DNA of 64,000 bases, from assembly GCA_013140695.1 (NCBI GenBank), contig JABFSI010000007.1, positions 15,560 to 79,559 on the forward strand, in the 5' to 3' direction. Below, piece by piece: positions 60,242-63,088 of the stretch. This DNA is from Sideroxydans sp. (GTDB lineage: Bacteria > Pseudomonadota > Gammaproteobacteria > Burkholderiales > Gallionellaceae). Below the pieces are notes generated by a model that saw only the letters and a program-made list of their open reading frames with translations, was not told the DNA's origin and ran no database searches. The first letter of the stretch is position 1, and each line of letters starts with the position of its first letter. The position numbers were made by a program, and so were the translations under genes.

Positions 60242-63088
60242 CTAAACGATATATCGATCCCATCCCGCATAAGAATCCTTGATCCGCCCGCGCGGGATCG
60301 CCAAGGCAATCAGCAGCACGCCGCAGATCACGCCGTTCCAGGCCGCCAACGGCGAGGCGATACCGTCGAGCAGCCACGGCGCCGCGATCAACCATACGCC
60401 GAACGGGATGTTGATGAAGCGAATGGCGCGCCCGACCTCGGCCCAGGCCATGATCGAAAACGTCACCACCAGCGCGCCGATCAGGTGATCGCTGTCGGCC
60501 ATGGCGCCCGAGGTGTCGAAGCTGAGCCGCGTGAACGTGAGCCAGACGCCGATCGCGATACTGAGCAACAGCGTCCAGGGATAGGTCACGCCGCGCGTGG
60601 CCTGGGCCCACTGCTCGCCAGGGCCGGCAGCCAGCCCCTTGGCGGTGTCGTCACTGCCGCCGTCCATCGCATCGCCGGTCCAGAAGGTGCGCCAGAATGG
60701 CTTGCCTTGCTTGCGTGACCAAATCAGGAACTGGCCCATGGCGACGAACTCGTTGAGCGAATACGGGATCATCAGCGCCATCGCCAGCGCGGCGACCAGA
60801 CACAACGTGCACCAGGTGCCAATCACGATCGGCTGGATGACGATGAAATAGATGCTGACGACACCCAGCGGCACGATCAAGATGCCCAGCCCCAGCACCA
60901 TCCACGGCATGGTGCGCCAGCGGTTCTTGCCGGCCATCCAGGTCATCGCCAGTTCAAGCGTGTAGACGATTGCGCCCAGTGCGCCATCGGCAATCGGCCA
61001 GGCCTTGGACACATCCGAAGTAATGATCGTCTCCGTGCCGTTCATCGCGCCCTTCATGTCGCCCCTGCCGGCGAAGAACGGTTCCCAAACCGTATCGATA
61101 TGGCCGAGCTGATAGGCCCCGAGAATGCGTGCGATGAAAAATCCGATCAGCGCGAGCACCCCGATCGGCATCCGCTGCAGCCAGCTCGACGGCGTGTAGG
61201 CCCAGCCCGGCGGCACGTCCGGCTTGCCCATCATGCCGGCCATGCTCATGCCGGGCATCATGGGAATCAGCACCGACAGCGCGATCACCAGCGCGCCGAC
61301 CAGGGTGCCGTTGGCATAGGCCTCCGGCAGCGGCGTCCAGAACACCAGCGGCGCGAACAGCAACCACAGGCCGACGAAGGCGTTGGCCCACTGCGCCCAG
61401 GGATTGCGGCGCCACGCGTCCGCGGACAGCATACTGAAGACGATCACCAGGATGCCGCTGATGACATCGCTCCAGGTCATCAGCAGGTTGCGCAGTTCGA
61501 ACGACGGCAGCCCGCGCTCGGTCATGACGCGCAACTGGTTGGCGTCGGGAACGAAGTCGCTCAGGTAGCCGAGCGTGAACGGGCTAGTCAGCAGCCAGAG
61601 CCCGAGCATCAGGTTGAGATAATGCGGCCAGAGCATATTGCGATGGCTTTCGACCATCATGTCGCCGCCGTGCCCGGCAAGCTCATCAACCTTGGTGCCA
61701 CGCGGCATCAGCACCATGCCGCATTTGGGGCAACTGCCCGGTTCACTGCGCACGATTTCAGGGTGCATTGGGCAGGTGTATTCGACTGGCTGCGGCGACG
61801 GCGGTGCGACGGGTTCCAGGGTCGTGTCGCACCTCGGACAGTTCCCCGGCAAAGACTGGCAGACTTCCGTGTGCATTGGGCATGCATGCATCAGGCAGCC
61901 ATGCGCGGGGGTCGGTTCGATGTCCATCGTGATAAAAATATCGGTATCTTCGCCGTGCGCATGCTCGGACGCCTCTGACAAAGTATGCTCTGCCTCCTTC
62001 ATCAGGGACAAGGGCAGCTCCAGGCCGTGCTGGCGGTACCAGCCGAGCGGGTCGGCCTTCAATGCCGCCACCATCTTGGGCAGGGTCTGGCGCAGCGTGC
62101 GACTTGGTGCCCAGTCGAGCAGGGTACGGGCGCGCTTGATGTCCAGGGCATAATGGTCGTTGGCCCGGGCAATCATCCACGGCTTGATGAATGGGTCCTG
62201 ACCGGGCATGTGATCCTGAACCCACGCACCCACCTTGGCAATGAGCCCGGGAACATTGTGCGTCTCCCCTGACTTGCCGTGGATTAACCGCATGAATGTA
62301 TGCTGCAGCTCATCGTAGCTCAACGTCTCCGGTTCACCTACAAGTATCACGGACTCAGTCGGCAGTTGGGCACGGCACTCGATAGTACGCTCGATGACGT
62401 CGACTACGTCGTTCAGGTGGATGAAACTCTGGCCGTGCGAGGTCTCGCCGGAATACAGGTGGCCGGCGAGTTGCCCCTCATAGATGCGTTGGATCTGGTG
62501 CGCCAGCGGCGGTGAGTGACAAACATCGTCGTAGACACCGGCAAGGCGCAGGATCACGGCAGGAATCGCGCCGCGCTCCGCCTTGATGAGCGCCTCGGTG
62601 CGGACCTTCGACTCAGGGTAGGCCCAGGTTGGCTCGATCGGCGAGTCTTCGGTGATGAACACGCCCGGCTCGCCGGGCGCATGCACGAGCATTGTGCTGG
62701 AGAAGATGAATTGCTCGACCTCGAAACCCTTGCGCAGCCCGTGTCCCGTACCCTCGCGCAGCCCACGCAGCAGATTTGCCGTGCCCTCGATCGTGATCTC
62801 GTCGTATTTCTGGCTCGGTTTGCCGAGGAAATCGTAATAGGCAGCCAAATGGATCACTGCGGCGATGTGGGTCCCGTGGTGTTCACGCAGGACGCGCAGT
62901 CCTTCACGCACGCTGTCATAGGAAGCGATATCGACCGATATACGCACGCAATCAGGCGGCGCAGGGGTGGGCGAGTTGCGGTCGAAGCCCACGACATCGC
63001 TAAAGCGTCCAGTCAGCCGCTGCATCACCGCGTTGCCGATTCGTCCGTTGCAACCGGTAATCAGAATTATATTTCTTTTTGGTTTCAT
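60242..63088 (-). CDS. 948-aa fusion: SDR/epimerase domain, two heavy-metal-binding (HMBD) motifs, SPW-type membrane repeats and a VKOR-like core
   Basis: [14 protein letters not shown] Rossmann fold. [12 protein letters not shown] and [60 protein letters not shown] repeats. WCTLC in a TM helix. Confidence 0.75.
   Translation of the reverse strand: [948 protein letters not shown]

What the first reader, a model, noticed from the sequence alone, without database searches (positions are those of the whole stretch)
60242..63088. 948-aa SDR - HMBD x2 - SPW repeat - VKOR-like fusion protein
- One reading frame joins a cytoplasmic NAD(P)-binding epimerase/dehydratase-type domain, two CPMH..CP.C heavy-metal-binding motifs ([22 protein letters not shown] is the form seen at the N-termini of some CusB/CopA proteins), and about 14 TM helices.
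- The TM region is made of SPW-type repeats around a VKOR-like core with WCTLC.
- This predicts a metal-sensing or metal-loaded, quinone-linked thiol oxidoreductase wired to a nucleotide-dependent domain.
- It is followed by a soluble cytochrome c gene upstream on the same strand.
- I know of no characterised protein with this architecture.
Basis: partly seen in the sequence, partly recalled or inferred. Interest (0 to 1): 0.65.

Follow-up and report, generated by a model that had tools for sequence, protein, structure and literature searches.

The report
Copper-island SDR–HMBD–VKOR-like membrane oxidoreductase
This is a real, intact gene for a large inner-membrane protein that joins a cytoplasmic NAD-dependent dehydrogenase and two copper-sensor modules to a 12-helix core resembling vitamin K epoxide reductase; the family is widespread in copper-resistance gene islands, but nobody has shown what it does.

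Summary
The 948-aa ORF (60242..63088, minus strand) is real, and all four domain types pass Pfam's curated cut-offs. It is not an assembly fusion. Over 120 full-length homologs (66-91% identity) share the architecture, at least 450 species-level genomes encode a relative, and some lineages carry the SDR and membrane parts as adjacent genes.

AlphaFold gives 12 TM helices (4 SPW + 4 VKOR-like + 4 SPW), not about 14. The SDR and HMBDs are cytoplasmic, and the CxxC lies at the periplasmic face. HMBD2 matches the Legionella CopA copper-sensor domain almost residue for residue. Contexts are mainly Cu/Ag resistance islands.

The "thiol oxidoreductase" reading is only partly supported:
- The VKOR shuttle-cysteine pair is absent family-wide.
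- An abundant sister clade has lost both the CxxC and the HMBDs yet keeps the rest of the core.
- No thioredoxin-type partner is conserved.

Instead, the core recurs with cytoplasmic redox modules (extended SDR, classical SDR, 2Fe-2S). In the HMBD clade only, it is linked to a periplasmic cytochrome c (13/24 versus 0/35 loci).

Best model, at low confidence: a copper-gated, NAD(H)-linked membrane redox enzyme acting at the periplasmic face. The function is uncharacterised.

The parts
60242..63088 (-). Complete CDS, 948 aa plus stop: SDR - HMBD x2 - SPW(4TM) - VKOR-like(4TM) - SPW(4TM)
63096..63100 (-). Shine-Dalgarno AGGAG, 7 nt upstream of the ATG
62054..63088 (-). Cytoplasmic extended-SDR domain (aa 1-345). 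GxxGxxG at 12-18, D36 (suggests NAD preference), and S131, Y157, K161 are invariant in both clades. C47 and C190 are specific to the HMBD clade.
61814..61903 (-). HMBD1 (aa 396-425), variant motif [11 protein letters not shown]..CPRCD; it lacks the G-M that follows the CxxC
61700..61783 (-). HMBD2 (aa 436-463), LpCopA-type metal-binding domain. C439, M441, H442, C453, C456 and M458 correspond to LpCopA C42, M44, H45, C56, C59 and M61.
   Evidence: PMC11970713
61253..61636 (-). N-terminal SPW module, TM1-TM4 (helices 487-505, 530-555, 564-582, 588-607)
61229..61267 (-). Met-rich cytoplasmic loop [13 protein letters not shown] (aa 608-620). Invariant in both close clades; low pLDDT, so probably flexible.
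60710..61183 (-). VKOR-like four-helix core, TM5-TM8 (aa 636-793), with a structured periplasmic loop at 661-700 that contains no cysteine
60800..60811 (-). C760-T-L-C763 at the periplasmic start of TM8, the ancestral CxxC of the family
60245..60589 (-). C-terminal SPW module, TM9-TM12 (aa 834-948)
63144..63440 (-). Probable partner: periplasmic class-I cytochrome c (98 aa, signal peptide, CAVCH). It lies 55 nt upstream with no terminator-like site in between, and is conserved at the same position in the syntenic locus L003.

Best explanation
The gene encodes a copper/silver-stress-island inner-membrane oxidoreductase.

Shown:
- An N-in, 12-TM core made of two SPW four-helix modules flanking a distant VKOR-like four-helix bundle.
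- A conserved CxxC and a polar pocket (Q660, S691, D701, Y709, Q752) near the periplasmic face.
- A cytoplasmic extended SDR with intact NAD-binding and Ser-Tyr-Lys catalytic residues.
- Two cytoplasmic LpCopA-type metal-binding domains between the SDR and the core.

Inferred:
- The SDR supplies or removes reducing equivalents (NAD(H)) at the conserved cytoplasmic face of the core (R639, R723/W724, E780, E884, R887, R890).
- The VKOR-like pocket holds a quinone or similar redox-active lipid next to the CxxC.
- In this HMBD clade the periplasmic side exchanges electrons with a dedicated c-type cytochrome.
- Cu(I)/Ag(I) binding to the HMBDs (and possibly to the Met-rich loop, C47 and C190) switches the enzyme on, by analogy with relief of autoinhibition in LpCopA.

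The physiological output would be control of periplasmic copper, thiol or cytochrome redox state during metal stress, independent of DsbB/DsbD. The direction of electron flow and the true substrate are unknown.
For: - Domains and invariant catalytic residues.
- Topology: AF2 gives 12 TM helices, there is no signal peptide, and K+R counts are 15 inside versus 5 outside.
- HMBD2 matches the LpCopA MBD (E=1.5e-10) with its ligand set conserved. That domain binds Ag+/Cu+ and acts as a sensor (PMC11970713).
- SDR and core form a functional pair. They are fused in most lineages and are adjacent separate genes in Rhodobacterales (L055) and Aequorivita (L081).
- The same core is independently fused to a C-terminal classical SDR (P0243) and to a 2Fe-2S ferredoxin domain (P0359). 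It also sits next to a TM-anchored classical SDR in Natrinema and Ca. Manganitrophus.
- A cytochrome c homolog lies within 3 kb in 13/24 HMBD-clade loci versus 0/35 HMBD-less loci, often overlapping the stop codon. The window itself has one 55 nt upstream.
- Copper context: 33/65 loci have a metal gene within 8 kb, and annotated cop/cus/cueR/P1B-ATPase neighbourhoods were seen.
- Family-wide conserved residues cluster at a periplasm-proximal pocket and on a cytoplasmic face.
Against: - No experiment exists for any family member.
- An SDR transfers a hydride by direct contact. The VKOR-type pocket lies near the opposite membrane face, so direct SDR-to-pocket chemistry is geometrically doubtful. 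Inter-domain placement in the full-length model is uncertain (pTM 0.54), and no coordinates were available.
- The sister clade keeps SDR and core but has lost the CxxC, so the family's core activity cannot require it.
- Quinone binding is assumed from weak VKOR similarity.
- About half of the loci show no recognisable metal gene.
- Recurrent neighbours such as GH15, alpha-glucan enzymes, CMAS and ICMT point to sugar or lipid chemistry instead.
- The cytochrome c statistics are not corrected for phylogeny.
Confidence: 0.35

Rival explanations
1. Lipid or sugar-modifying enzyme. The extended SDR is the catalytic centre and acts on an NDP-sugar, glycolipid or isoprenoid/quinone head group at the cytoplasmic leaflet. 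The 12-TM core only binds, positions or flips the lipid substrate. The product remodels the envelope under metal or other stress, and the HMBDs regulate.
For: - The best structural matches of the SDR are NDP-sugar 4-epimerases and 4,6-dehydratases (TM-score on target 0.68-0.79).
- SDR catalytic residues are invariant even in the clade that lost the CxxC.
- GH15 glycoside hydrolase plus a second SDR recur next to the core in Archaea, Nitrospirota and three proteobacterial loci.
- Islands carry isoamylase, phosphorylase, PGM, CMAS, ICMT and Lycopene_cyc-domain genes.
Against: - The CxxC is conserved in about 90% of family representatives, and this model gives it no role.
- It does not explain the 2Fe-2S fusion or the clade-specific cytochrome c partner.
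- No NCBIfam equivalog or specific sugar-enzyme subfamily matched.
- GH15 linkage is seen in only 5 of about 95 loci.
Confidence: 0.2
2. One reading: a VKOR/DsbB-type quinone-linked disulfide-forming oxidase serving periplasmic proteins of the copper island.
For: - The Pfam VKOR hit is strong (E=1e-21).
- The CxxC sits at the periplasmic start of the fourth core helix and aligns with human C132xxC135.
- Some islands carry Trx/DsbD/CcdA/DsbE genes.
- Copper is known to disturb periplasmic thiol chemistry (general knowledge).
Against: - The shuttle cysteine pair is absent family-wide.
- No thioredoxin-like domain is fused or conserved nearby.
- The sister clade lacks the CxxC yet conserves the core.
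- A cytoplasmic NAD-dependent SDR has no role in an oxidase that dumps electrons into quinone.
- Similarity to solved VKORs is weak.
Confidence: 0.15
3. Copper(I) handling rather than redox. The HMBDs, C47/C190, the Met-rich loop and the intramembrane CxxC form a thiolate/thioether relay that binds or moves Cu(I)/Ag(I) across or into the membrane. The SDR acts as a regulatory or energy-sensing module.
For: - HMBD, CxxC, C47 and C190 are gained or lost together between the two clades.
- The Met-rich motif [8 protein letters not shown]..MM is invariant.
- Bacteroidota versions replace the HMBD with a His/Met-rich tail.
- The context is copper islands.
- The LpCopA MBD uses Met/Cys/Met ligation.
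Against: - The Met-rich loop is retained in the clade without CxxC and HMBD.
- The CxxC is present in many family members that have no metal-binding tail.
- There is no structural similarity to any known metal transporter.
- The strictly conserved SDR catalytic triad argues for catalysis, not sensing.
- Cytochrome c linkage is unexplained.
Confidence: 0.12
4. Assembly or annotation artefact: separate genes wrongly joined in this window.
For: Split versions exist in some lineages, and the gene's G+C (0.62) differs from its flanks.
Against: - The identical architecture appears in more than 120 clusters, including complete genomes (Sulfuriferula plumbiphila, Sphingopyxis chilensis) and many independent contigs. 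P0010 alone was read on 24 contigs.
- Identity to the closest homolog is 91% over 100% of the length.
- The gene is syntenic with L003.
Confidence: 0.01

Closest known systems
Bacterial and vertebrate VKOR (Pfam PF07884; Synechococcus VKOR-Trx, PDB 3KP9/4NV5/4NV6; human VKORC1, 6WV6)
   Same: The central four-helix bundle passes the Pfam VKOR model. The CxxC lies at the extracytoplasmic start of the fourth helix and aligns with human C132xxC135, with N80 aligning to D701 and Y88 to Y709. VKORs are the only PDB folds with appreciable Foldseek probability (0.47-0.69).
   Different: There is no loop cysteine pair and no thioredoxin-like partner. The bundle is sandwiched between two SPW four-helix modules and fused to a cytoplasmic SDR and HMBDs. 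A sequence profile finds no solved VKOR. A whole sister clade lacks the CxxC.
N-terminal metal-binding domain of Legionella pneumophila CopA (PDB 8OVL; Pfam HMBD PF19335)
   Same: HMBD2 aligns at E=1.5e-10 with the ligand pattern C-x-M-H...C-x-x-C-G-M conserved. It is cytoplasmic and located just before the first TM helix, as in LpCopA.
   Different: Here it is attached to a non-ATPase redox-type membrane protein. It is present in 1-4 copies across homologs, and HMBD1 lacks the G-M. The sensor/autoinhibition role is inferred by analogy only.
Extended SDRs of the NDP-sugar epimerase/dehydratase type (GalE, RmlB, GMD)
   Same: Two-lobed fold with TM-score on target 0.68-0.79; GxxGxxG and the Ser/Tyr/Lys triad are present.
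   Different: Identity is only about 20%, and no NCBIfam equivalog matches. The domain is covalently or operonically tied to a 12-TM protein, and the substrate is unknown.
STEAP/NOX/Fre-type transmembrane metalloreductases, and DsbD/CcdA/ScsB (functional analogies only)
   Same: Concept: a cytoplasmic NAD(P)H-using or thiol-reducing module is coupled through a membrane domain to redox chemistry on the outer face. ScsB/CcdA-type genes also populate copper islands.
   Different: There is no homology, no heme-binding His pairs or flavin domain, and no paired transmembrane cysteines as in DsbD. The analogy rests on architecture, not on tests.

Membership tests
VKOR (PF07884) | Match to the family profile above the curated cut-off | tested here: met
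   77.8 bits versus cut-off 27.5, profile positions 2-133 of 134. The same holds for distant cores.
VKOR (PF07884) | CxxC active site at the extracytoplasmic end of the fourth helix | tested here: met
   C760-T-L-C763 at the start of helix 761-793. Conserved in 120/121 close homologs and about 91% of representatives.
VKOR (PF07884) | Pair of shuttle cysteines in the loop between helices 1 and 2 | tested here: not met
   Zero Cys in loop 661-700 in 115/115 sequences of A1 and in 113/116 representatives.
VKOR (PF07884) | Four-helix-bundle fold superimposable on solved VKORs | tested here: inconclusive
   Foldseek of the core model (pTM 0.77): 4nv6 probability 0.69, 4nv5 0.57, 6wv6 0.47, all with E>1 and rmsd 5.7-15 A. 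A sequence profile finds no solved VKOR. hhalign probability is 10%.
VKOR (PF07884) | Quinone-dependent oxidation of a thioredoxin-like partner | not testable with these tools
   No fused or conserved Trx/DsbA neighbour was found. The activity needs biochemistry.
HMBD (PF19335), LpCopA-type MBD | Profile match and the C-x-M-H ... C-x-x-C-G-M ligand pattern | tested here: met
   Pfam 61.2 bits versus 23.6, two copies. HMBD2 aligns to 8ovl and 3rfu. HMBD1 keeps Cys/Met/His but lacks G-M.
HMBD (PF19335), LpCopA-type MBD | Cu(I)/Ag(I) binding and a regulatory role | not testable with these tools
   Known for LpCopA only (PMC11970713).
Extended SDR (PF01370 and relatives) | GxxGxxG NAD(P) motif and catalytic Ser-Tyr-Lys | tested here: met
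   G12, G15 and G18 are present. S131, Y157 and K161 are invariant in 115/115 sequences. D36 is invariant, which suggests NAD rather than NADP (inference).
Extended SDR (PF01370 and relatives) | Two-domain fold of NDP-sugar epimerases/dehydratases | tested here: met
   Foldseek E about 1e-13, TM-score on target 0.68-0.79.
Extended SDR (PF01370 and relatives) | Membership of a specific functional subfamily (GalE, RmlB, HpnA, OleD ...) | tested here: not met
   All NCBIfam hits lie far below their cut-offs (best is galE at 37 bits versus 262).
SPW repeat (PF03779) | Profile match; units of two TM helices, two units per module | tested here: met
   85.1 bits versus 31.5, three stretches. AF2 shows 4+4 helices flanking the core.

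The most novel reading that the evidence does not exclude
A previously unrecognised class of envelope redox enzyme. It would be a copper-gated transmembrane conduit in which a metal-free, flavin-free NAD(H)-dependent SDR on the cytoplasmic side is coupled, through a VKOR-like quinone/CxxC pocket buttressed by SPW modules, to a dedicated periplasmic cytochrome c. This would give bacteria an O2-independent, DsbB/DsbD-independent way to set the redox state of periplasmic copper, thiols or cytochromes during Cu/Ag stress.
Probability: 0.2. Interest if true: 0.8.

Novelty: new variant of a known kind. Interest (0 to 1): 0.55.

Why it matters
- The family is large: at least 450 species-level genomes across at least six phyla plus haloarchaea, and 269 clusters at 50% identity with E<=1e-30 for the core alone.
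- It is mobile, being plasmid- and island-borne, and it repeatedly sits in Cu/Ag resistance loci. Yet it has no assigned function.
- If it is a copper-gated redox conduit, it would add a new component to bacterial copper defence and a new use of the VKOR/DsbB-type fold, one that does not rely on the canonical four-cysteine relay.
- Natural variants provide ready-made controls for experiments: fused versus split genes, with or without HMBD, with or without CxxC, and alternative SDR or ferredoxin partners.
- A tractable model organism, Sinorhizobium meliloti (pSymB), carries the HMBD-less form.

Tried and rejected
- Literature searches found no functional study. Terms covered SPW, VKOR with copper, VKOR with epimerase, DUF2231, PF19335/HMBD and S. 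meliloti locus tags. The hits were irrelevant or only listed the Pfam architecture.
- A sequence-profile search of the VKOR-like segment against PDB sequences found no VKOR.
- Foldseek of the full model returned only SDR hits. Foldseek of the core returned nothing significant.
- Unbiased neighbour clustering found no universal partner gene. My first greedy ORF filter hid small genes, so I replaced it with an all-ORF and tblastn analysis.
- The promoter/terminator scan was uninformative, at or below shuffle expectation.
- The exact-sequence look-up of the Sulfuriferula homolog P0026 was not on record.
- The assembly-artefact explanation was rejected.
- The FlgB-like ORF downstream was rejected as part of the system. 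It is a chimera created by a 365-bp flgB fragment.
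Full report
**Observation**

The window contains a 948-aa ORF on the minus strand at 60242..63088. A canonical AGGAG ribosome-binding site lies 7 nt before the ATG. Pfam places four domain types in it, all above curated cut-offs:
- an extended SDR (Epimerase 8-247; GDP_Man_Dehyd 9-339)
- two HMBD copies
- SPW, in three stretches
- VKOR, at 641-777

NCBIfam gives no equivalog; every hit is far below threshold. 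A 98-aa signal-peptide cytochrome c gene (63144..63440) lies 55 nt upstream on the same strand, with no terminator-like site between them. The one correction is that AlphaFold predicts 12 TM helices, not about 14.

**Not an artefact**

A search of 5.8 billion proteins returned more than 120 full-length homologs at 66-91% identity with the same Pfam set. They come from Methylotenera, Thiobacillus, Sulfuriferula plumbiphila, Acidithiobacillus, Hyphomicrobium, Dokdonella and Sphingopyxis chilensis, and include complete genomes.

A scan of one genome per species found at least 450 genomes encoding a relative. These span Pseudomonadota, Bacteroidota, Gemmatimonadota, Acidobacteriota, Armatimonadota and Rokubacteria. 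117 plasmid records hold a match covering at least 80% of the protein.

The window is syntenic with metagenomic locus L003 at about 90% DNA identity. The gene's G+C (0.62) stands out from its flanks (0.42-0.50), which is consistent with horizontal acquisition.

**Anatomy**

The full-length model has mean pLDDT 78, and the core-only model has pTM 0.77. They give these helices:
- SPW-N: 487-505, 530-555, 564-582, 588-607
- VKOR-like: 636-660, 701-718, 728-756, 761-793
- SPW-C: 837-857, 861-880, 884-906, 913-930

There is no signal peptide. K+R counts of 15 (inside) versus 5 (outside) support an N-in topology. The SDR, both HMBDs and the Met-rich loop [13 protein letters not shown] (608-620) are therefore cytoplasmic. 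C760xxC763 sits at the periplasmic start of TM8.

GxxGxxG, D36, S131, Y157 and K161 are invariant in 115/115 aligned sequences. The SDR fold matches NDP-sugar epimerases/dehydratases, with TM-score on target 0.68-0.79 at about 20% identity.

HMBD2 aligns with the N-terminal MBD of Legionella CopA (8ovl, E=1.5e-10) with its ligand pattern conserved. In LpCopA that domain binds Ag+/Cu+ through M44, C59 and M61, and it acts as a copper sensor that relieves autoinhibition (PMC11970713).

**How VKOR-like is it?**

The Pfam VKOR match is strong, but other evidence is weaker:
- A profile of the segment finds no solved VKOR by sequence.
- Foldseek of the core gives no significant PDB hit. Synechococcus and human VKOR are the only folds with appreciable probability (0.47-0.69, E>1).
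The register is sensible, however: it aligns the two CxxC motifs, N80 with D701, and Y88 with Y709.
- The loop cysteine pair that VKOR and DsbB use as an electron shuttle is absent: zero Cys in loop 661-700 in 115/115 close and 113/116 distant members.

The protein is therefore a divergent branch of the VKOR superfamily that fails one defining feature. The 4+4+4 assembly has no solved analogue.

**Family structure**

An exhaustive HMMER search with the membrane core alone found 1844 clusters (at 50% identity) with E<=1e-3 and 269 with E<=1e-30. They are a mixture of SDR fusions and many stand-alone cores of 410-520 aa.

W-C-x-x-C-L is conserved in about 90% of representatives. So are Q660, S691, D701, Y709 and Q752 near the periplasmic side, and R639, R723/W724, E780, E884, R887 and R890 on the cytoplasmic face.

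A very abundant alphaproteobacterial sister clade (46-55% identical, including S. meliloti pSymB) has no HMBD. In 56/59 of its sequences the CxxC is replaced by S-T-[L/P]-A. It also lacks C47 and C190 of the SDR, yet it keeps the SDR triad, the Met-rich loop and the rest of the core. The family's core activity therefore cannot depend on a thiol-disulfide CxxC. In the window's clade, the CxxC, HMBDs, C47 and C190 are conserved together.

**Functional coupling of SDR and core**

- In Rhodobacterales (L055) and Aequorivita (L081) the SDR is a separate gene immediately upstream of the core gene. The Bacteroidota core carries a His/Met-rich N-tail instead of an HMBD.
- The same core is fused to a C-terminal classical SDR (P0243) and to a C-terminal 2Fe-2S ferredoxin domain (P0359).
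- In Natrinema (Archaea) and Ca. Manganitrophus (Nitrospirota) the stand-alone core sits beside a TM-anchored classical SDR and a GH15 glycoside hydrolase. The same pair follows full fusions in L024, L033 and L048.

Repeated, independent association with cytoplasmic redox modules is the strongest clue to function.

**Context**

Neighbourhoods are variable, with no universal partner; the best neighbour cluster is in 17/70 loci.

By single-reference tblastn, 33/65 loci have a metal gene within 8 kb: P1B-ATPase, CueR/MerR, DUF411/CopG, CusABF, MCO/CopB or CopCD. Annotated examples:
- copAB-DUF305-DUF411-DUF2231-copCD in Sphingobium
- cueR-P1B-ATPase in Pelagibacterium
- CusCFBA upstream in L003

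A second recurring setting is a stress island that the window largely shares. It holds YHS, DUF5676, DUF1622, alpha-glucan enzymes, CMAS, a Lycopene_cyc-domain gene, LemA/TPM and cytochrome c.

A cytochrome c homolog lies within 3 kb in 13/24 HMBD-clade loci against 0/35 HMBD-less loci (Fisher p=6e-7, not phylogenetically corrected). In many of these it is a membrane-anchored protein of 180-217 aa whose start overlaps the stop codon of the fusion gene.

**Interpretation**

The best-supported model (confidence about 0.35) is a copper-gated, NAD(H)-linked membrane oxidoreductase. The SDR works at the conserved cytoplasmic face. The VKOR-like pocket with the CxxC works at the periplasmic face. 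In this clade the periplasmic side communicates with a c-type cytochrome, and the HMBDs act as Cu(I)/Ag(I) sensors.

- Shown: domains, invariant residues, topology, fusion/split equivalence, alternative redox fusions, and the copper and cytochrome c linkage.
- Inferred: quinone binding, electron flow and its direction, HMBD gating, and the physiological target.

The main objections:
- The distance between an SDR active site and a periplasm-proximal pocket.
- Loss of the CxxC in the sister clade.
- Sugar and lipid enzymes among recurrent neighbours.

**Novelty and verdict**

The architecture is already listed by Pfam and named generically by annotation pipelines. No characterised member or functional study was found in about 8.3 million full texts.

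I rate it a new variant of a known kind: a VKOR-superfamily membrane core without the canonical cysteine relay, embedded between SPW modules and wired to cytoplasmic SDR and metal-sensor domains. Interest is moderate to good (0.55). The family is widespread and mobile, it is linked to copper stress, and natural variants make it experimentally tractable. The mechanism remains conjectural.

Noticed in passing
window 59638..60189 (-), insertion at 59647-60010: The 183-aa 'FlgB-like' ORF directly downstream of the fusion gene is a chimera. Relative to syntenic locus L003, the window has a ~365-bp insertion that carries the whole Flg_bb_rod motif, joined in frame to a small island ORF. L003 has a Flg_bb_rod gene at the island's other edge, which suggests a rearrangement or integration scar near flagellar genes.
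   Followed up: partly
window 46313..48363 (-): A 2.4-kb stretch with no ORF of 90 aa or more is tiled by eight small minus-strand ORFs. Six have Pfam hits (four above the gathering score): DUF5676, DUF2933 x2, SHOCT, DUF2934 x2. One more has a weak, sub-threshold DUF456 hit. DUF5676, DUF2933 and SHOCT also occur in related islands (L001, L003, L004, L089). Their functions are unknown.
   Followed up: partly
window 58220..58798 and 60242..63088 versus flanks: G+C mosaic: the fusion gene and the DUF2231 gene are at 0.62-0.65 G+C, while the surrounding genes are at 0.42-0.50. This suggests the island was assembled from donors of different composition.
   Followed up: no
window 63541..63981 (-): A 146-aa ORF upstream of the cytochrome c gene combines a CxxCH motif (NCMACH) with about 3-4 TM helices. 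It has no Pfam hit here, but the corresponding L003 gene hits Aq_1264_TM, where it is preceded by a separate 103-aa ORF. It may be a second, membrane-bound heme protein of the same transcription unit. The window ends at 64000, so the upstream part is not visible.
   Followed up: no
window 55764..56231 (-): A 155-aa secreted-looking protein with no Pfam hit lies next to the DUF411/CopG-like gene (56246..56719). It is conserved at the same position in L003.
   Followed up: no
L093 4881-9321; L094 6902-11220; L024, L033, L048 downstream of the fusion: A conserved trio links the SPW-VKOR-SPW core, a GH15 glycoside hydrolase and a classical SDR with a C-terminal TM anchor. It occurs in a haloarchaeon, in Nitrospirota and in three proteobacterial loci. 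This hints at a sugar-linked substrate or a shared stress module.
   Followed up: partly
L081 9048-10583 and representatives P0255, P0342, P0386: Bacteroidota-type cores carry a His/Met-rich N-terminal tail with a recurrent RGVTRPM motif in place of an HMBD. This is a different way of attaching a probable metal-binding segment to the same core.
   Followed up: no
window 39402..57000 and 29573..31657: The window shares a recurrent 'stress island' gene set with L004, L089 and L091. It includes PPK2, LemA/TPM, an alpha-glucan phosphorylase-like gene, an isoamylase homolog, CMAS, ICMT, a Lycopene_cyc-domain membrane protein, two MerR-family regulators and an MBL/beta-CASP nuclease. Whether this set is one regulon is unknown.
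   Followed up: no
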